Below, in pieces: positions 44,449-63,395 of a stretch of DNA of 64,000 bases. Every line of letters starts with the position of its first letter. The first letter of the stretch is position 1. The position numbers and the translations under genes were made by a program. Source of the DNA: a virus; IMG/VR virus record IMGVR_UViG_3300045988_156245; one strand, 5' to 3'. The notes beneath the pieces are model-generated. The model was not told where the DNA came from. It did no database searches and worked only from the letters and a program-made list of their open reading frames with translations.

Positions 44449-44460
44449 AACTTTTTGTTG

Positions 44461-44740
44461 TGACTAACAGAAGTTAGTCTTGACTAACTGTTATTAGTAT
44501 TATCTAACTATAGTTAGTTTAGTCTAATTTTAATTAGTGATGTCTAACTATGGTTAGTCTAGACTAACTGAAGTTAGAAGTGTCAAACTTTAGTTACTAT
44601 AGGCTAACTTTGATTGGTTGTTTGAAACTCAGGTTAGTATAGGCTAACCGCAGTTAAGTGTTTGAAACTCTTGTTAGGTGTAACTAACCAGAGTTAGTAT
44701 AGGCTAACTCAAATTAGTTATTTGAAACTCTTGTTTTATT
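44461..44740. repeat. array 1: 14 phased 20-bp units with CTAAC-N4-GTTAG palindromes
   Basis: exact 20-bp register from 44461; arms conserved, centres and spacers variable; 40-bp super-period in the right half. Confidence 0.9.
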
Positions 44741-44743
44741 AAG

Positions 44744-44783
44744 CGGACCGTGGACATTGGACCTTATTTTTGTCCACGGTCCG
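44744..44783 (+). other. conserved GTGGACA hairpin, copy 2
   Basis: 13-bp stem cggaccgtggaca/tgtccacggtccg, 14-nt loop ttggaccttatttt. Confidence 0.75.
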
Positions 44784-44793
44784 TCTGGTCCAG

Positions 44794-44814
44794 CCGAACA
44801 TACGTTCGGGTTTT
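44794..44814 (+). terminator. CCGAAC-atac-GTTCGG terminator
   Basis: 6-bp GC-rich stem plus tttt; identical copy at 49289-49309. Confidence 0.6.
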
Positions 44815-44998
44815 AAACTGATTAAAAAACATCAAGTTGATTGATGTTTTTTATCCCATAAAATAAATCAAGTTAGTTGATGTTTTTTAATCAGTAAAAT
44901 ATATCAAATTCCTTGATATATTTTAATTTGAAATATTTTTATTTATTTTTGTGCAAATTGTACAAAAATTCAATGTAAATTTTGTGCAATATTCCCCC

Positions 44999-49136: not shown

Positions 49137-49167
49137 GCAAGTTGCACAAAATGTGACTTGCTTTTTT
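49137..49167 (+). terminator. terminator
   Basis: gcaagt/acttgc stem (loop carries a TTGCACAAA box) then tttttt. Confidence 0.5.
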
Positions 49168-49182
49168 GTGCAAAATTACTAC

Positions 49183-49211
49183 TTGACAAAGTGCGGCGGA
49201 TGTGCTATAAT
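49183..49211 (+). promoter_or_regulatory. promoter of candidate small RNA
   Basis: TTGACA-N17-TATAAT; the -10 context atgtgcTATAAT is identical to the promoter at 53770. Confidence 0.55.
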
Positions 49212-49217
49212 AAAATG

Positions 49218-49309
49218 GGACTCTATAGACTCATATATTTCAGATGTTTGTCGGCTCGTCGATGGTTGAGACGAGCCGAGTTGTCAAGCCGAACATACGT
49301 TCGGGTTTT
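49218..49309 (+). ncRNA. candidate small RNA with hairpin variant copy 4 and CCGAAC terminator
   Basis: 10-bp stem tcggctcgtc/gacgagccga (49251-49279), then ccgaac-atac-gttcgg plus tttt (49289-49309); no RBS. Confidence 0.4.
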
Positions 49310-49385
49310 AAATTGATTAAAATACATCAAGAACCTTGACTTATTTTATCCCATAAAAAACATCAAGTTGATTGATGTATTTTAA

Positions 49386-49640
49386 TCTAACAAAAGTTAG
49401 ACACAACTAATTCTAGTTAGGCTTGACTAACCCCAGTTAGCCTAAACTAACTAAAGTTAGTTACTATTAATTTAAGTTAGCTGTAACTAACTTTTGTTAG
49501 CCACCTCTCATTAAAGTTTTGTTAAACTAATTTTAGTTAGATTGCCCCTAATTCAAGTTAGTTATAACTAACGCAAGTTAGACTTCACAAATAAAAGTTA
49601 GTTAAAACTAACAGCAGTTAGATTAAACTATCGTCATTTT
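49386..49640. repeat. array 2: 13 phased 20-bp units with CTAAC-N4-GTTAG palindromes
   Basis: left arms at 49387, 49407, 49427, 49447, 49467, 49487, 49507, 49527, 49548, 49568, 49588, 49608, 49628; GTTAG arm nearly invariant; alternate units read aACTAAY. Confidence 0.9.
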
Positions 49641-49747
49641 GCACAAAATTTTCAATTGAAAAATTTTGTATGATTGCACAAAAAATAATATCCCCAACCC
49701 CGCATTTTTGTGCAATCTGCTAAAGTTAATTAAAATGATAACAAAGT

Positions 49748-51559: not shown

Positions 51560-51931
51560 ATGACAAACAAAAAAATGACAAAGAGAGATTATTTTAACGG
51601 ACTTTTAGGAGTGATTGAAAATCACAAAGATAGCATTGAGAATTATGAAGATTTTAAGGCTTTCATTGAAAGAGAGATTGAATTACTTAATAAGAAACGT
51701 AGCAATTCAAAACCAACAAAGACACAGATTGAAAATGAAAAAATCAAAGAAAAAATTCTTGAGGTTTTAACAGATGTAAATGAAGTTATGACAATTTCTG
51801 AATTAATGACTGCTGACGGTTTAGAAAATTATTCAAATCAGAAACTTTCAGTTTTATGTCATCAGTTAGTAAATGAGCATAAGGTAGTCAATACCAAAGT
51901 AAAAAAAGTTTCATATTTCAAAATTGCCTAA
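51560..51931 (+). CDS. hypothetical winged-helix-like protein, paralog A
   Basis: 123 aa; shares EIELLNKKRS..KPTKTQIENEKI...MTI.E(L/M)M....L..YSNQKLS.LC with 53238-53633. Confidence 0.6.
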   Translation: MTNKKMTKRDYFNGLLGVIENHKDSIENYEDFKAFIEREIELLNKKRSNSKPTKTQIENEKIKEKILEVLTDVNEVMTISELMTADGLENYSNQKLSVLCHQLVNEHKVVNTKVKKVSYFKIA

Positions 51932-51993
51932 AGGCTATGGGGATAGCCACAAAGGTTATCCCCTTAAAATCTTAAAAAAGGAGTTGATAAAAA

Positions 51994-52362
51994 ATGACTA
52001 AGGCAGAAGAAAAAGCCAAAGAAATTAAAGGTTTAATGGAACGTCATTCTTTAACATTGGAAGAAGCCACCCAACTATGGGAAGAAGATAATTCAGACTA
52101 CTGTAATGAAGAAATGGCAGAAATGGAGAATAAGGCTAAAGCCTTAAAACGCAGGTATGAGAAAGATTTAACAAAAAAACGCAAGCCTACCGAAAGGGAA
52201 CGCAAAGTTGATACAGAAAAACTTGAAATTTTAAATTTAATAGTTCCAACATTACAAACAATTAGTGACAATGTGGAACGCAAGAATGAAGTTGAGTTAC
52301 ATTTTACAAAAGGTGGTAATGATTACACGATTAAATTAATCAAACATCGTAAAAAGAAGTAA
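51994..52362 (+). CDS. hypothetical charged protein (122 aa)
   Basis: aaggag RBS; strong terminator follows. Confidence 0.6.
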   Translation: MTKAEEKAKEIKGLMERHSLTLEEATQLWEEDNSDYCNEEMAEMENKAKALKRRYEKDLTKKRKPTERERKVDTEKLEILNLIVPTLQTISDNVERKNEVELHFTKGGNDYTIKLIKHRKKK

Positions 52363-52372
52363 TGACAACGAG

Positions 52373-52413
52373 TGCAAGTAGTATTCAATACTACTTGCAT
52401 TTTTTATTTTTTT
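52373..52413 (+). terminator. strong rho-independent terminator
   Basis: tgcaagtagta/tactacttgca stem then tttttattttttt. Confidence 0.75.
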
Positions 52414-52580
52414 CAATGTTACATATTGTATGAGTGCGGGGGAGCCGGTATTAGTGACTTTTACCTAAATACAATATGTGATATGTCACGTACTATGTTA
52501 CATATTATAATATGTGATATATCACACGCAAGGTCACATATTACAATATGTGATATGTTACATACAATATGTGACCTTAA
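52405..52580. repeat. cluster of ATATGTGAT / ATCACAT direct and inverted repeats with 7-bp phasing
   Basis: acaatatgtgatatgt(c/t)ac at 52471, 52543, partial 52564; tgtgatatatcaca palindrome 52513-52526; tcacatatt-ac-aatatgtga palindrome 52534-52553. Confidence 0.8.
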
Positions 52581-52590
52581 CAGGACTCAT

Positions 52591-52617
52591 CGCAGCGTTT
52601 CCGGTTGAAACGCTGCG
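52591..52617. other. GC-rich 10-bp hairpin
   Basis: cgcagcgttt/aaacgctgcg, loop ccggttg; lies at the 5' end of the transcript predicted from the antisense promoter 52635-52663. Confidence 0.6.
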
Positions 52618-52634
52618 TGTTTGGGTAATATTTT

Positions 52635-52663
52635 ATTATACCACTTTTTCACTCCGATGTCAA
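52635..52663 (-). promoter_or_regulatory. antisense consensus promoter d
   Basis: reverse complement TTGACA-tcggagtgaaaaagtgg-TATAAT (N17, TGn). Confidence 0.6.
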
Positions 52664-52712
52664 TAGTAATTTTGCACAAAAATTTTTTCCCAAAATTGTG
52701 AAATTTTACTAA

Positions 52713-52741: not shown

Positions 52742-52834
52742 ATATACATAGATAAGAGATAGAGTTCTTTACAAGGGCTTAACAAAGGGTTAGGTTCTTG
52801 TAAAGGTCTATCGCCAAAGAAAGGAGATATTAAT

Positions 52835-52936
52835 ATGTGGAATAAAGAAAAACATTGGAAGCACGACGTATTAAAATTGCATAGAAAATATGAAAAAGAA
52901 AGAAAAAAAGTGCTTGACAAAAAAGTAAATAAGTAG
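52835..52936 (+). CDS. small basic ORF (33 aa)
   Basis: aaaggag RBS; the next promoter is embedded in its 3' end. Confidence 0.35.
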   Translation: MWNKEKHWKHDVLKLHRKYEKERKKVLDKKVNK

Positions 52937-53237: not shown

Positions 53238-53633
53238 ATGGAAAAGATGATAAAGAGAACTAAAAGAGCAATGTATGAAGAAATTATGAAAATGGTAGAG
53301 GGCAAAGAAAGAGTTGCAACCGAAGAAGAAATTATTGCTTTCTGCGAACACGAAATTGAACTCTTAAACAATAAGAGAAGTGGCTCAGGTAAACCAACAA
53401 AGACACAGATTGAAAATGAGAAAATTATGGAAACTATCTATTCAGTTCTTGAAAATGCGGGTGTCGGAATGACAATTACAGAAATGATGAAAACTGATGA
53501 ATTAAATGCTTATTCAAATCAGAAATTATCTGCTCTTTGCAAGAAAATGTATGAAAATGAGAAAATTCAGAAGAAAATCATCAAGAAAAAGTCATTTTTC
53601 GCTGTAAAAGGTGTAGAAATCACTGAAAAGTAG
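53238..53633 (+). CDS. hypothetical winged-helix-like protein, paralog B
   Basis: 131 aa; paralog of 51560-51931. Confidence 0.6.
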   Translation: MEKMIKRTKRAMYEEIMKMVEGKERVATEEEIIAFCEHEIELLNNKRSGSGKPTKTQIENEKIMETIYSVLENAGVGMTITEMMKTDELNAYSNQKLSALCKKMYENEKIQKKIIKKKSFFAVKGVEITEK

Positions 53634-53769
53634 TATAAAAGGGCGAAAAGGGGGCAACATCCTCCCCTTTTTGCCCAAATTGTTTAAAAAATATAAAAAA
53701 ATTAGTAGAAATGCACAAAAATTGTTAAAAAAATACAGTTTTTGTGTATTTTTTTGTGAAAATTTACTA

Positions 53770-53798
53770 TTGACAAATAGTAACAAATGTGCTATAAT
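53770..53798 (+). promoter_or_regulatory. promoter of candidate GC-rich RNA
   Basis: TTGACA-N17-TATAAT (atgtgcTATAAT). Confidence 0.6.
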
Positions 53799-54935: not shown

Positions 54936-55140
54936 CACTCTACTTAATTTCACTTAATTTTATATAATTCTACTCAATTTTACTCAGTTTTATTTATTTT
55001 CTGCTCAAATTTTATTTAATCTTTACTTAATCTTACTTATTTTCCACTCAATTTTTTATTTACCTTCACTTAATTTTATCTTATCTACTCTACTTAATTT
55101 AACTTACTTTAATTTTATCTTATCTTTATCCCACTTTCCC
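54936..55140. repeat. degenerate array of about 11 (C/T)ACT(T/C)AATTTTA-like direct repeats
   Basis: ctctacttaattt, cacttaatttta, tactcaatttta, actcagtttta, gctcaaatttta, tacttaat, cttacttatttt, cactcaatttttt, cacttaatttta, tacttaattta, cttactttaatttta at 10-22 bp intervals. Confidence 0.7.
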
Positions 55141-55681: not shown

Positions 55682-55799
55682 GGTAACACTTCATTAACAT
55701 TTTTAATTAAACTTGGTACACTTTATTAACAATCATTTAAGCAAAGTTGGTACACTTTTTTAACATTTATTTAAAATTTTTTGGTACACTTTATTAACA
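55682..55799. repeat. four 17-18-bp iteron-like direct repeats, 33-34 bp phasing
   Basis: ggtaacacttcattaaca 55682, ggtacactttattaaca 55715, ggtacacttttttaaca 55749, ggtacactttattaaca 55783. Confidence 0.85.
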
Positions 55800-55805
55800 T
55801 TTTTC

Positions 55806-56432
55806 TTAAATAATTTTTGTTTTAACTTCTTCTTCATTAAAATTTAAAGTATTATTAACACTGTCTAAATAATATTTAGTTTTATTGCCTTCCATTTGAG
55901 CATGGTATTCAATTAAATCTAATTTTTTTAAAACAAAAAGTATATCTAATATAGTTTGATTACTAGCCCCTTTATTTTTAGTACTTAAACCTAAAATAGC
56001 TTTAATATAGCTTAAAGAAAAAGGTCCAGATTTTTCTTCGTTTTTATACCATATCTTAATTAAAATTGCTAATACAGATAAACTTCTTTCTTTTAATGTA
56101 TTAACTAAAACCCTAACAGTATTAATAGGCAATAGAGTAGCAATATTACTATCTAATACAACTAATTCATACATCTTTACTTCTTCATTATAAATAATAA
56201 GACCACTATCTAATAAATTATGAAAATTTTTTGATGCAGTTTGTCTTGTTATTCCTAATCCTTCTGCAAGATTAACAAATTTACAATCTTCCTTTTTTAC
56301 AAATCTAGCTTCCATATCTGGAAAAGTTACAGAAATAGATTGCAAATAACCATACATTCTGTCTGAATAGGTTCTACTAGATAAATAATGCTTATCACTA
56401 GGCATTTGTCTTGAATTTTTTTCTATTTTCAT
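55806..56432 (-). CDS. double winged-helix DNA-binding protein (RepA-like initiator or repressor candidate)
   Basis: 208 aa; two wHTH-like segments NLAEGLGITRQTASKNFHNLLDSGLIIY and YIKAILGLSTKNKGASNQTILDILFVLKKLDLIEY; flanked by inverted iteron arrays. Confidence 0.45.
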   Translation of the reverse strand: MKIEKNSRQMPSDKHYLSSRTYSDRMYGYLQSISVTFPDMEARFVKKEDCKFVNLAEGLGITRQTASKNFHNLLDSGLIIYNEEVKMYELVVLDSNIATLLPINTVRVLVNTLKERSLSVLAILIKIWYKNEEKSGPFSLSYIKAILGLSTKNKGASNQTILDILFVLKKLDLIEYHAQMEGNKTKYYLDSVNNTLNFNEEEVKTKII

Positions 56433-56534: not shown

Positions 56535-56621
56535 AAAAATGTTAGCAAAAAATGTTAATAAAGTGCACCACTTAACAGTTTATCCAAAAATGTTAATAAA
56601 AAATGTTAATAAACTGCACCA
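56535..56621. repeat. iteron copies in opposite orientation upstream of the wHTH gene
   Basis: tgttaataaagtgcacc 56553-56569 and tgttaataaactgcacc 56604-56620, each preceded by an aaaaatgtta half repeat (56540, 56591). Confidence 0.8.
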
Positions 56622-57276: not shown

Positions 57277-58386
57277 ATGACAACTATTATACAAACTGGA
57301 ACTAAATATGATTTATATGATTCAAGTATACAGACACATCAGTCTTTACCTGCGGGAATCTATAAGGTAACTTTTAACCCTCAGTCAGGACATCAATTAT
57401 TATATGTTGCGGATAAGAATGATATTAAAGAAAAAATTTATGGCGTTCATACAAAGAAAGTTGAAAAAGTATTAAATACATTTCGTAACTTCAATAGAAG
57501 CGAAGGAGTGTTATTAAGCGGCGATAAAGGTATTGGTAAATCTTTATTCACTAAATTATTAACAAATGCGGTAATTGATATGGGATTACCAGTTATTTAT
57601 GTTAATGAAGCTAGTCCAAATTTAGGGGATTATATTGATAGTATTCCTACTGAATGTATGATTTTATTTGATGAATTTGATAAAACTTTTAGTTCTCCTT
57701 ATGAACAAAATGATTTATTATCACTTTTTGACGGAACTTCTCGTAATAAAAAGTTATTTGTAATTACTTGTAATAATTTAGATAGCCTTAGTTCATTTTT
57801 GGTAAATAGACCAGGAAGATTTCATTATCATATCTGCTTTAAATATCCTACATCAGAAGATATTGTAAAATATTTAAAAGATAAGTTAGATGAAAAATAT
57901 TGGGGCGAGATACCAAAAGTAGTAAAGCGAGCAACCGCAATTAAAACAAACTATGATACTTTAAGAGCAATAGCTTATGAACTTCAGCAAGGTTGGTCTT
58001 TTGAAGAAGCAATAGAAGATTTAAACATTGATAAAGGTAATAAAACAATTTATTTTAATATATGCTATACGCAAAAAAATAAAGAACGTCATAGTCTTAA
58101 AGTACCATTTGTTCCTTCTAAAGTAGAAGCGGAAAAGGTAAAATTATCACTTACAGATAAATTGGGAAATTTTATTGGTGAAGCAATATTTTCTACTGAT
58201 GATTTTTACTTTGATATAAATGATAATGATTTTAAACTTAATATAGAAAAAGCAACTTATCAGTTTAGCACAATTAAACGTGGTATATATATGTCACAGG
58301 ATGGAGAAGAAATTGTAACTGACAAAGACAAAGAAAATGCAGTTATCACTGAAATTGTTATTACCAATATATCAGAAGATTTTTGA
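57277..58386 (+). CDS. classic-clade AAA ATPase
   Basis: 369 aa; Walker A LLSGDKGIGKS, Walker B MILFDEFD, sensor-1 VITCNN, SRH NRPGRFHY; about 130-aa C-terminal domain of unknown type. Confidence 0.75.
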   Translation: MTTIIQTGTKYDLYDSSIQTHQSLPAGIYKVTFNPQSGHQLLYVADKNDIKEKIYGVHTKKVEKVLNTFRNFNRSEGVLLSGDKGIGKSLFTKLLTNAVIDMGLPVIYVNEASPNLGDYIDSIPTECMILFDEFDKTFSSPYEQNDLLSLFDGTSRNKKLFVITCNNLDSLSSFLVNRPGRFHYHICFKYPTSEDIVKYLKDKLDEKYWGEIPKVVKRATAIKTNYDTLRAIAYELQQGWSFEEAIEDLNIDKGNKTIYFNICYTQKNKERHSLKVPFVPSKVEAEKVKLSLTDKLGNFIGEAIFSTDDFYFDINDNDFKLNIEKATYQFSTIKRGIYMSQDGEEIVTDKDKENAVITEIVITNISEDF

Positions 58387-62760: not shown

Positions 62761-62958
62761 ATGGCAAAAGATAGAGAAATTACTTGTATACACTACAAAT
62801 ATGAAGGATGTTGTGACTTAGGTCACGAAGGAACTTTTCGTAAAGCGTGTCAAAAATGTAAACAATACAAGGCATTAAAAGGCGGGAAGCCAGCACGCCG
62901 CAATTTAAAAAGAGAAAAGAAAGAAAAATTTGAAAAAGATAGGAGGAATTGGATATAA
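62761..62958 (+). CDS. Cys-rich zinc-binding mini-protein with basic tail
   Basis: 65 aa; CIHYKYEGCC...HEG...CQKC then KPARRNLKREKKEKFEKDRR. Confidence 0.5.
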   Translation: MAKDREITCIHYKYEGCCDLGHEGTFRKACQKCKQYKALKGGKPARRNLKREKKEKFEKDRRNWI

Positions 62959-63395
62959 TGATTACATCTTTTGAAGGAAAATATAGTTTTTTATCAAATT
63001 TTTATGCATGTCAGACAGAGTATCATAATGTAAAATATCCTACTTCTGAACATGCATATCAGGCTGCAAAAACAAGTAACCCAATACAGAAAGAAGCAAT
63101 TAAAAATGCAGATACTCCAGATGATGCAAAACGAATGGGAAGAAGAGTAGAGATAAAAAGCAATTGGGATGAAATAAAAGATGAAGTGATGTATGAAATT
63201 GTTTCAAATAAGTTTAAAAACAAAAGGATGCAGGCTAAATTATTAGCAACAGAGAATGAACAGTTAGTAGAAGGTAACTATTGGCATGATAATCATTTTG
63301 GTTCTTGTTATTGTAAAAAATGTTTACAATTACCAAAAGAAAATGTTTTAGGTAAGATTTTAATGAGAGTTAGAGAAGAATTAAAAGAAGCATAA
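62958..63395 (+). CDS. NADAR (YbiA/DUF1768) family protein
   Basis: 145 aa from the ATG at 62958 (TAATG overlap, aggagga RBS); FLSNFY, YPTSEHAYQAAK, AKRMGRR, NWDEIKDEVMYEIVSNKF, LLAT...LVEGN.WHDN.FG match E. coli YbiA motif for motif. Confidence 0.8.
   Translation: MITSFEGKYSFLSNFYACQTEYHNVKYPTSEHAYQAAKTSNPIQKEAIKNADTPDDAKRMGRRVEIKSNWDEIKDEVMYEIVSNKFKNKRMQAKLLATENEQLVEGNYWHDNHFGSCYCKKCLQLPKENVLGKILMRVREELKEA

What the first reader, a model, noticed from the sequence alone, without database searches (positions are those of the whole stretch)
52405..52663. Heptad-phased ATGTGAT/ATCACAT repeat cluster between two terminators, read through by a fourth antisense promoter
The stretch 52466-52580 can be parsed in 7-nt register: acaatat gtgatat gtcacgt ... 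tgtgata tatcaca ... atgtgat atgttac atacaat atgtgac. It contains the perfect palindromes TGTGATATATCACA (52513-52526) and TCACATATT-AC-AATATGTGA (52534-52553). Four heptads match WATCACW, the unit bound cooperatively by the ribbon-helix-helix omega protein of inc18 plasmids (pSM19035), where heptad arrays act as operators and centromeres. The tract is ORF-free; the 78-aa ORF in the track is just the repeats. It lies between a strong terminator (52373-52413) and a GC hairpin (52591-52617). It is also downstream of a consensus minus-strand promoter (52635-52663). The tract could therefore be either a protein-binding array or the body of a repeat-containing antisense RNA of about 200 nt.
Basis: partly seen in the sequence, partly recalled or inferred. 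Interest (0 to 1): 0.65.

Follow-up and report, generated by a model that had tools for sequence, protein, structure and literature searches.

The report
Repeated protein-binding sites in gut phage
A non-coding stretch of a common human-gut phage carries a tandem array of short palindromic sites, with a 36-base period rather than the reported 7, that most likely binds one of the phage's own small DNA-binding proteins and is also transcribed; it is a real but fairly ordinary kind of regulatory element whose exact job is unknown.

Summary
The repeats, both palindromes, the flanking terminator, the GC hairpin and the minus-strand consensus promoter are all real. The heptad phase is not. The array is a 36-nt tandem unit (2.7 copies here, 2 to 5 in relatives) built from a ~10-13-nt half-site, TAYAATATGTGAY, in both orientations. 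The four WATCACW matches lie in three registers, never more than two contiguous, and no ribbon-helix-helix protein was detected. The omega/inc18 reading is therefore not supported.

Across 20 natural variants the half-site is conserved, while spacing, copy number and spacers change. The array lies just 3' of a conserved gene pair: an uncharacterised winged-helix protein (P123, with paralogue P131 downstream) and P122. Related phages carry ATGTNA-type arrays at the same place.

The minus-strand promoter hexamers are invariant and the hairpin keeps its pairing. A distant relative shows the same layout of promoter, 5' GC hairpin, array and terminator.

Best reading (about 0.45): a cluster of binding sites for the phage winged-helix protein inside a small non-coding transcription unit, probably gating antisense transcription.

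Rivals: a structured or tandem-repeat RNA, or a replication origin.

It is a new member of a known kind, of moderate interest.

The parts
51560..51931 (+). P123: 123-aa winged-helix protein, the candidate binder of the array
   Evidence: AlphaFold2 pLDDT 91.8: three N-terminal helices plus a C-terminal winged helix. The fold resembles small winged-helix domains with target-normalised TM about 0.8 but weak E-values. The family has about 1876 50%-identity clusters and no name. The recognition helix SNQK-x-S is nearly invariant.
51994..52362 (+). P122: 122-aa partner protein of unknown fold, always next to a P123-like gene
   Evidence: A P122 homologue lies near a P123-like gene in 7 of 7 bacterial-genome loci, directly downstream in most. 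The family has 1095 hits and no Pfam or PHROG function. AlphaFold2 pLDDT 75, with no structural match.
52370..52413 (+). Intrinsic terminator of the P123-P122 operon. Its 13-bp perfect stem is also the only hairpin that could stop the leftward RNA.
   Evidence: (I10). Conserved in all relatives.
52416..52430 (-). Isolated reverse half-site ATGTTACATATTGTA
   Evidence: Conserved in all variants, with one substitution in some.
52432..52459 (.). Conserved G+C-rich box GAGTGCGGGGGAGCCGGTATTAGTGAC, function unknown
   Evidence: Almost invariant in 20 variants.
52470..52578 (.). Core array of 36-nt tandem units. Forward half-sites AATATGTGAY lie at 52473, 52509, 52545 and 52566. Reverse half-sites lie at 52498-52506 and 52534-52542. 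Degenerate inverted copies (ATRTYAC) directly follow each of the first three forward sites.
52591..52617 (.). G+C-rich hairpin (11-bp stem, 5-nt loop) at about +10 to +37 of the leftward transcript. It is not followed by a T-run on either strand.
   Evidence: One G:C to A:U compensatory pair appears in 3 sequences and the loop varies freely. The stem is re-registered but kept in L036.
52635..52663 (-). Consensus sigma-A-type promoter with extended -10, firing leftward into the hairpin and array. The start near 52627 is inferred.
   Evidence: The -35, -10 and TG are invariant in 13 distinct sequences while 5 of 17 spacer positions vary.
53238..53633 (+). P131: paralogue of P123 (48% identity) with the same recognition helix

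Best explanation
The tract is a tandem array of binding sites for a sequence-specific double-stranded-DNA-binding protein. The unit is 36 bp, with 2.7 copies here and 2 to 5 in the natural population.

Each unit carries a strong forward half-site (TAYAATATGTGAY). A degenerate inverted copy abuts it, giving the 14-bp palindrome TGTGAYATRTYACA. A second reverse half-site forms a 22-bp palindrome with the next unit.

The most likely binder is the phage's own winged-helix protein P123, encoded 0.5 kb upstream, and/or its paralogue P131, binding as dimers and probably cooperatively. The array is the cis-acting end of a conserved module: P123-like gene, P122-like gene, terminator, ATGTNA-type array, G+C hairpin.

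The array is also the body of a small non-coding transcription unit. It is driven leftward by a conserved consensus promoter whose RNA starts with a stable hairpin.

Proposed role (inferred): the protein-loaded array acts as a gate or roadblock. It decides whether this strong leftward transcription stops or runs antisense into the P122-P123-exonuclease operon, coupling the amount of P123 to expression of its own early operon.

Shown: repeat anatomy, enrichment, population variation, motif conservation, synteny, promoter and hairpin conservation, and the winged-helix fold.

Inferred: that a protein binds, that it is P123 or P131, and the gating role.
For: Anatomy and enrichment.

Twenty natural variants (19, L036) keep the half-site: AATATGTGA is essentially invariant in forward sites. 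The number of units (-36, +36, +72 nt), non-unit insertions (+20, +23 nt), spacing and the 5-6-nt spacers all change. This pattern is expected for binding sites and not for one fixed RNA fold.

L036, whose P123 is 86% identical, keeps the motif in yet another arrangement.

Synteny: a P122 homologue accompanies a P123-like gene in 7 of 7 loci. Clusters of the core ATGTRA lie just 3' of these genes in several lineages, 4 to 8 sites per 150 bp against a background of 0.2-0.8: L037 and L038, L043 and L044, L045, L047, and L039. The half-site drifts (ATGTGAY, ATGTAAA, TGTCAA) while the protein's SNQK recognition helix stays nearly invariant.

P123 is a confident winged-helix model.

The array is the only such cluster in the roughly 83 kb examined.

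The promoter hexamers are invariant and the hairpin keeps its pairing. The same layout of promoter, hairpin, array and terminator occurs in L045.
Against: No binding data exist. The link to P123 rests on proximity and on a shared core motif.

Three distant P123/P122 loci (L040, L042, L046) show no array directly after P122, and L041 has only a two-copy GTGA-N8-TCAC repeat.

The array does not overlap the -35 or -10 of any strong promoter, so it is not a classical operator.

A dedicated strong promoter with a 5' stabiliser-like hairpin suggests that the RNA product itself may matter.

The relatives are few and partly close, so motif conservation could partly reflect shared descent and gene conversion between units; in L001 and L027, units 1 and 2 are identical.

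The gating role is a model only. The leftward RNA meets no canonical terminator, but read-through was not measured.
Confidence: 0.45

Rival explanations
1. The functional product is the RNA. A stable non-coding RNA of about 250 nt is made from the minus-strand promoter. It has a 5' hairpin followed by a series of imperfect hairpins or 36-nt tandem units. It would act as a protein sponge, an RNase III substrate, or a decoy resembling the 36-nt-repeat ToxI antitoxins of type III toxin-antitoxin systems that some phages mimic.
For: The consensus promoter has invariant hexamers and a conserved 5' hairpin. The same layout of promoter, GC hairpin, array and T-run occurs on the other strand in the distant relative L045, and a minus-strand promoter reads into sites in L047. 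The unit length is 36 nt and copy number varies from 2 to 5, as recalled for ToxI and the pseudo-ToxI expansion in phage PhiTE (own knowledge, not checked in a paper here). Both strands fold far better than shuffles, with z of -6.1 and -7.2.
Against: The conserved entity is the 10-13-nt half-site, not the 36-nt unit. Non-unit indels (+20, +23 nt) and rearranged spacings of 55, 47 and 32 nt occur. Arrays in related lineages are irregular. A direct-repeat array with the same core and no hairpins occurs in L044. No strand is consistently the better folder over 18 variants. No Rfam family is matched, ToxI included. No toxin gene lies downstream. Palindromic DNA sites give stable folds automatically.
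Confidence: 0.2
2. The array is a replication origin. Iterons would be bound by an initiator (P123, possibly with P122), next to a G+C-rich hairpin and an A+T-rich stretch, and activated or primed by transcription from the minus-strand promoter.
For: The array lies directly 3' of a DNA-binding-protein gene in an early operon that also encodes a DnaQ-like exonuclease. It is a single locus in about 83 kb. Copy number varies by whole units. A G+C hairpin, an A+T-rich flank and an inward-facing promoter are present, as recalled for lambda ori, RSF1010 oriV and pAMbeta1 (own knowledge). The phage encodes its own Pol III alpha.
Against: A more canonical origin-like locus lies 3 kb away. It has 34-nt direct repeats flanking a two-winged-helix gene, 10-nt phased A/T tracts and an AAA+ ATPase. 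Cumulative GC skew has no minimum at 52.5 kb; the minima are near 40 and 58 kb. DnaA-box-like sites are not enriched and none lies in the array. Some relatives have two or more such arrays within 1-2 kb. P123 has no recognisable initiator, helicase or primase domain.
Confidence: 0.15
3. The array is an omega-type (inc18) ribbon-helix-helix operator or centromere made of phased WATCACW heptads.
For: Four perfect WATCACW matches occur in 115 nt. One abutting inverted pair, TGTGATA|TATCACA, lies at 52513-52526.
Against: The matches fall in registers 2, 3, 3 and 4, with at most 2 contiguous. The perfect pair is absent in most relatives, which have TGTGATATGTCAC or TGTGATATGTTAC. The period is 36, not 7. 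Indels are not multiples of 7. The pSM19035 centromere needs at least 4 contiguous heptads without gaps (PMC9499535). No ribbon-helix-helix or Omega_Repress hit was found in 38 small ORFs, and no ParA-type ATPase was seen among the proteins scanned.
Confidence: 0.03
4. The array is a cluster of weak tandem promoters, or terminators, on the plus strand. It would make a short RNA ending at the 52591-52617 hairpin, convergent with the minus-strand RNA.
For: TAYAAT is embedded in the forward half-sites, and -35-like hexamers lie 17 nt upstream: ATGTCA-17-TATAAT at 52483-52511 and ATTACA-17-TACAAT at 52540-52568. In related lineages the half-site is literally TTGACA or TTTACA, and some palindromes are flanked by A-runs and T-runs.
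Against: Conservation centres on AATATGTGA, not on the -10 hexamer. The key A2 of the hexamer is G in 4 of 16 distinct forward sites. The -35 matches are poor, whereas every other promoter in this phage is near consensus. The hairpin lacks a T-run.
Confidence: 0.07

Closest known systems
F-plasmid sopC-type centromeres and other tandem arrays of palindromic binding sites lying 3' of the binding-protein gene (own knowledge)
   Same: Tandem units of a few tens of bp, each containing an inverted repeat. The array lies downstream of the gene for the DNA-binding protein. Copy number is variable.
   Different: No partition NTPase was found nearby. The unit is 36 bp rather than 43 bp. The candidate binder is a 123-aa winged-helix protein, not a ParB. 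The array is transcribed from its own promoter. The phage is SPbeta-like and nothing shows that it is a plasmid.
Lambda-type and plasmid iteron origins (lambda ori, RSF1010 oriV; own knowledge)
   Same: Repeated sites with internal dyad symmetry, an adjacent G+C-rich palindrome and A+T-rich DNA, a nearby promoter, and a position next to a DNA-binding-protein gene.
   Different: There is no initiator or helicase-loader signature in P123 or P122. GC skew gives no support. A better origin candidate lies at 54.9-56.7 kb. Relatives carry several arrays.
Omega (ParB of pSM19035) heptad operators and parS of inc18 plasmids (PMC9499535)
   Same: An ATCAC/GTGAT core and mixed orientation of the repeats.
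   Different: Omega sites are contiguous 7-bp repeats: 7-10 in natural sites (own knowledge), at least 4 without gaps for function (PMC9499535), bound by a ribbon-helix-helix dimer per heptad. Here at most 2 abut, the period is 36 bp, the conserved motif is 10-13 bp, and no ribbon-helix-helix protein was found.
SPBRE/MrpR operators of phage SPbeta (PMC10516654)
   Same: A repeated intergenic element in an SPbeta-like phage, bound by a phage-encoded regulator.
   Different: SPBRE is a single 15-bp site scattered over about ten promoters. This element is one dense cluster outside any promoter. The SPBRE-like role is better matched by the TTTTGCACAAAA motif next to many early promoters in this window.
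ToxI and pseudo-ToxI RNAs (type III antitoxins; own knowledge)
   Same: A 36-nt tandem unit, non-coding, transcribed, with copy number variable between strains of a phage.
   Different: The units are palindromic and only 75-78% alike in the window. Relatives show non-unit indels. There is no toxin gene, no Rfam match, and the related arrays are irregular.

Membership tests
Omega/inc18 ribbon-helix-helix heptad operator or centromere | Contiguous 7-bp WATCACW repeats without gaps (at least 2 for binding, at least 4 for centromere function) | tested here: not met
   The longest contiguous run is 2. Perfect heptads lie in registers 2, 3, 3 and 4. The requirement is taken from PMC9499535.
Omega/inc18 ribbon-helix-helix heptad operator or centromere | Heptad register and heptad sequence conserved in relatives | tested here: not met
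   Indels are -36, +20, +23, +59 and +72 nt. The perfect diheptad TGTGATATATCACA is replaced by TGTGATATGTCAC or TGTGATATGTTAC in most variants.
Omega/inc18 ribbon-helix-helix heptad operator or centromere | A ribbon-helix-helix binder (and a ParA partner) encoded by the element | tested here: inconclusive
   No ribbon-helix-helix, Omega_Repress, Arc, CopG or ParG hit at E<=0.05 in 38 small ORFs; only winged-helix or HTH families were hit. Profile searches can miss very short ribbon-helix-helix proteins. Only 64 of about 130 kb was searched.
Iteron-type replication origin | Repeated initiator-binding sites adjacent to the initiator gene | tested here: inconclusive
   Repeats lie next to a DNA-binding-protein gene, but P123 and P122 have no initiator signature.
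Iteron-type replication origin | DnaA boxes, or a skew minimum at the site | tested here: not met
   TTWTNCACA gives 13 hits against 11 expected, none in the array. Cumulative GC-skew minima lie near 40 and 58 kb.
Iteron-type replication origin | Origin activity | not testable with these tools
   Needs marker-frequency analysis or a replication assay.
Type III antitoxin RNA (ToxI-like) | Tandem direct repeats of about 34-50 nt transcribed from an upstream promoter | tested here: met
   36-nt unit with 2 to 5 copies. A consensus promoter reads into it.
Type III antitoxin RNA (ToxI-like) | Near-identical units of fixed length, and a match to a known family | tested here: not met
   Units are 75-78% alike in the window. 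Relatives show non-unit indels and spacings of 55, 47 and 32 nt. There is no Rfam hit.
Type III antitoxin RNA (ToxI-like) | A terminator followed by an endoribonuclease toxin gene (or a cognate host toxin) | tested here: not met
   Only the antisense of P122 lies downstream on the minus strand, with no credible ORF. Host loci could not be searched.
Binding-site array for a phage winged-helix protein (the class under which it is filed) | A short motif conserved while number, spacing and orientation vary, with strong local enrichment | tested here: met
Binding-site array for a phage winged-helix protein (the class under which it is filed) | Conserved linkage to the gene of the DNA-binding protein in independent lineages | tested here: met
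   Arrays lie 3' of P123-like and P122-like genes in the window/L036, L037/38, L043/44, L045, L047 and L039 lineages. They are absent or minimal in L040, L041, L042, L046 and L048.
Binding-site array for a phage winged-helix protein (the class under which it is filed) | Direct protein-DNA binding | not testable with these tools
   Needs EMSA, footprinting or ChIP.

The most novel reading that the evidence does not exclude
The array is expressed as a stable tandem-repeat RNA: consensus promoter, 5' hairpin, then 2 to 5 units of 36 nt. This RNA would act as a decoy or antitoxin mimic against a host abortive-infection nuclease, like pseudo-ToxI. Alternatively it would sponge the phage's own winged-helix proteins. 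Copy-number variation in the gut population would then reflect an arms race with host defence.
Probability: 0.08. Interest if true: 0.75.

Novelty: new member of a known kind. Interest (0 to 1): 0.38.

Why it matters
The phage is very common in human gut metagenomes: the exact P123 sequence occurs on 188 contigs, and genomes are about 130 kb. It belongs to a poorly studied SPbeta-like group.

The work defines a conserved, uncharacterised module consisting of a winged-helix protein, a partner protein, and a transcribed array of palindromic sites. The two protein families have roughly 1900 and 1100 members and no annotation.

The array gives a concrete, testable DNA (or RNA) ligand for these families. 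It is also an entry point into early-gene control in these phages.

The copy-number polymorphism could serve as a strain marker.

It does not reveal a new principle unless the RNA-decoy reading proves true.

Tried and rejected
- **Rfam and tRNA scans** of the window and six relatives found nothing.
- **Synteny in the nearest cultured relatives.** The region downstream of the exonuclease gene in Enterococcus phage H1 has no comparable array.
- **DNA similarity to plasmids and phages.** Only the unannotated MT835855 matched.
- **Motif-pair scan of IMG/VR.** Only the same phage lineage carries true arrays.
- **G:U wobble strand asymmetry as a test for an RNA on one strand.** The plus strand folds better in most of the 18 variants, but the minus strand folds as well or better in L003, L027 and L036, so the result is not decisive and could reflect mutation bias.
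- **Z-alpha analogy for P123.** The fold hits are generic winged helix, the profile E-values are 0.3, and the Z-DNA contact residues (Tyr, PPxW, recalled) are absent. Rejected.
- **TubR/ParB-like partition.** No TubZ, ParA or ParM was found among the proteins scanned.
- **Resolvase res or six site.** No recombinase is nearby.
- **pac or genome end.** Two metagenome contigs end inside the array (L025, L029), but this is what assemblers do at variable tandem repeats.
- **P122 structure search** found nothing.
- **First homologue search for P123** returned only near-identical sequences and was uninformative.

Full report
**Context**

The window is A+T-rich (about 29% G+C). It comes from a large siphophage.
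- The minus strand from 1 to 39.6 kb carries a 2,895-aa tape-measure protein, a portal and a large terminase.
- The terminase is 44-47% identical to those of the roughly 135-140-kb Enterococcus phages EF1 and H1, Geobacillus E3 and Phass-1. It also matches SPbeta-type YonF proteins.
- Just left of the window lie RuvC, dUTPase, NrdD/NrdG and a 1,317-aa Pol III alpha.
- The plus strand from 40 to 54 kb holds many small early-type genes behind near-consensus sigma-A promoters.
- The phage is very common in human gut metagenomes. The exact P123 protein occurs on 188 contigs, and the longest contigs are about 128-132 kb.
- One related contig is binned with an Oscillospiraceae genome.

**Check of the observation**

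- The two perfect palindromes are there.
- The terminator lies at 52370-52402 with its T-run, and the 11-bp-stem hairpin at 52591-52617.
- The minus-strand promoter TTGACA-17-TGgTATAAT lies at 52663-52635.

The repeats are highly non-random.
- A 17-nt degenerate pattern gives 5 hits against 0.24 expected.
- Seven of the nine ATATGTRAY sites in 64 kb lie within 160 bp.

The claimed 7-nt phase does not hold.
- Tandem Repeats Finder gives period 36, 2.7 copies.
- Autocorrelation peaks at lag 36 (z=8.2). Lag 7 (z=4.0) is about as strong as lags 2, 5, 12 and 19 (z 3.1-3.5).
- The GTGA cores shift by one position per unit, because 36 = 5x7+1.
- The four perfect WATCACW heptads lie in three registers, with at most two abutting.
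- WATCACW occurs 45 times in the window.
- The heptad impression comes from a local duplication, ATATGTG-ATATGTC, inside each unit.

**Anatomy of the unit**

Each 36-nt unit has four parts.
- A strong forward half-site, TAYAATATGTGAY.
- After AT, a degenerate inverted copy. Together these form TGTGAYATRTYACA.
- A variable spacer of 5-6 nt.
- A reverse half-site, GTYACATAYT, which forms a 22-bp palindrome with the next unit.

The core-to-core spacings are 8, 12 and 16 nt. An extra reverse site at 52416-52430 and an invariant G+C-rich box at 52432-52459 precede the array.

**Population and comparative evidence**

I collected 20 distinct versions of the locus: the window, MT835855, IMG/VR contigs, metagenome contigs and L036.
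- Array length changes by -36, +36 (together with +23), +72, +20 and +23 nt. This corresponds to 2 to 5 units plus non-unit insertions that carry their own sites.
- The 78-aa ORF is therefore not maintained.
- The forward half-site AATATGTGA is essentially invariant. The spacers and the degenerate copies vary.
- The perfect palindrome TGTGATATATCACA is present in only some variants.
- This is the pattern expected for a set of protein-binding sites. It is not the pattern expected for one conserved RNA fold or for a heptad lattice.

**Link to a gene module**

The array lies directly after the terminator of a two-gene unit.
- P123 (51560-51931) is a confident winged-helix protein (pLDDT 91.8). 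It belongs to a large unnamed family of about 1,876 clusters at 50% identity, with uniform lengths around 120 aa and a nearly invariant SNQK-x-S recognition helix. There is no Pfam or NCBIfam name.
- P131 (53238-53633) is a 48% paralogue.
- P122 (51994-52362) belongs to a second unnamed family and has no structural match.
- A P122 homologue lies near a P123-like gene in all seven bacterial-genome loci found.
- In several lineages, clusters of an ATGTNA-type half-site follow these genes. The half-site is ATGTAAA/TTTACAT in L037, L038, L043 and L039, and TGTCAA/TGTAAA in L045 and L047. Their arrangement differs every time and a G+C-rich hairpin is usually alongside.
- Other loci (L040, L042, L046, L048) lack a clear array, and L041 has only a two-copy repeat. 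The linkage is therefore frequent but not universal.
- In the window lineage the cluster is unique within the roughly 83 kb examined.

**Transcription**

- In 13 distinct sequences the -35, the -10 and the TG of the minus-strand promoter are invariant, while five spacer positions vary.
- The hairpin at about +10 to +37 of the predicted RNA keeps its pairing. One G:C to A:U double change appears in three related sequences, probably a single event. L036 has a re-registered stem. The loops vary freely.
- The hairpin has no T-run on either strand, so it is not a terminator.
- The leftward RNA contains no credible ORF. It would cross the array and reach the back of the 52370-52402 hairpin.
- L045 shows the mirror image on the other strand: a 12/12 promoter, a G+C hairpin at about +3, an array of about 130 nt, then a T-run.
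- In L047 a consensus minus-strand promoter, read by eye from the sequence, points into sites next to the 3' end of a P123-like gene.
- The array is therefore very probably transcribed, and an RNA-level role cannot be dismissed.

**Interpretation**

The best-supported reading, at about 0.45, is a cluster of binding sites for the phage's winged-helix protein or proteins, embedded in a small non-coding transcription unit.

I propose, as inference only, that the loaded array gates the strong leftward transcription. Unchecked, that transcription would run antisense into the P122-P123-exonuclease operon.

Rivals:
- An RNA product with its own function, including a ToxI-like 36-nt-repeat decoy: 0.2 in total, of which about 0.08 is the decoy version.
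- A replication origin: 0.15. This is weakened by a more canonical iteron-like locus at 54.9-56.7 kb, by the GC skew, by the lack of DnaA boxes, and by multiple arrays in relatives.
- A promoter or terminator cluster: 0.07.
- The omega-type heptad operator: 0.03. It fails on contiguity, on register, on conservation and on the absence of a ribbon-helix-helix protein.

**Verdict**

This is a real, selected cis-element whose description needed correction: 36-bp units of palindromic half-sites, not heptads. It belongs to the familiar class of repeated binding-site arrays. It is attached to an uncharacterised but widespread phage gene pair. Its function is unproven and its interest is moderate.

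Noticed in passing
window 44460-44720 and 49383-49630; also L036 1749-2045 and L040 584-829: Two large arrays of about 12 units each with a 20-nt period, made of AGTTAG...CTAACT palindromes. They flank a 4.7-kb block of early genes. The same motif arrays occur in a relative whose P123 homologue is only 35% identical, so this is a second, more widely conserved repeat element.
   Followed up: partly
window 54941-55125, 55686-55819, 55806-56432(-), 56535-56621, 57277-58386: A locus that looks like an iteron replicon. About 14-18 copies of a 10-nt phased TACTTAATTT tract are present. 34-nt direct repeats (TTGGTACACTTTATTAACATTT, 3.4 copies) start just 3' of a 208-aa two-winged-helix (ScpB/MarR-like) gene and overlap its last codons. 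Inverted copies lie in that gene's promoter region. A divergent AAA+ ATPase (DnaC/clamp-loader-like) follows. This is a better origin candidate than the finding.
   Followed up: partly
window 44941-44990, 49140-49180, 49636-49715, 52669-52682, 53709-53760; also L036 5139-5166, L041 4840-5040, L042 2117-2212: A recurrent palindromic motif, TTTTGCACAAAA/TTTTGTGCAAAA, lies next to many early promoters and is conserved in distant relatives. It may be the counterpart of the SPBRE operator of SPbeta, and it also fits the relaxed DnaA-box pattern TTWTNCACA.
   Followed up: partly
window 49183-49312 and 44730-44817: A candidate small RNA. A 12/12 promoter (49183-49211) is followed by G+C hairpins and the terminator CCGAACATACGTTCGG plus T-run. 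The terminator module is duplicated at 44792-44817. A similar GTCGGCTCG...CGAGCCGA hairpin follows a consensus promoter in L048.
   Followed up: no
window 42609-42580, 43182-43154, 43999-43971 (all minus strand): Three more consensus antisense promoters lie in the early region. Two are followed within about 100 nt by minus-strand terminators; the third is followed only by a hairpin called on the plus strand. They suggest short antisense RNAs. The fourth, in the finding, differs in having no canonical terminator.
   Followed up: partly
window 52763-52779 (5' leader of the 33-aa ORF at 52835-52936): The hairpin AGTTCTT-TAC-AAGGGCT has two T:G positions. In MT835855 these become C:G and T:A (AGTCCTT-TAC-AAGGACT). 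This fits an RNA structure on the plus strand.
   Followed up: no
window 53641-53770; L036 5993-6053: The P131 paralogue is followed by a strong terminator and by its own short repeats: AAATTGTTKAAAAAATA, with a 21-nt period and 2.9 copies in L036. The second winged-helix gene may therefore also have a downstream site cluster, with a different motif.
   Followed up: no
L044 4226-4390: A direct-repeat array of about 8 copies of CTCACATT(C/T)CT, with the same ATGTGA core read on the other strand. It sits in a minus-strand intergenic region of a related phage. It shows the core motif used without palindromes.
   Followed up: no
window 51560-52362 versus relatives (alignments A4, A6): P123 and P122 share a basic segment, KPTKTQxEN / KKTQKER, just before a helix. 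It is the most conserved part of both families. It may be a shared DNA-contacting arm or a partner-binding motif.
   Followed up: no
window 62958-63395; L050 10895-20558: A NADAR-domain protein lies in the window. Beyond its left end lie anaerobic ribonucleotide reductase, dUTPase, guanylate kinase, a GIY-YIG homing endonuclease and Pol III alpha. This is a nucleotide-metabolism and replication set of SPbeta type in a phage of strict anaerobes.
   Followed up: no
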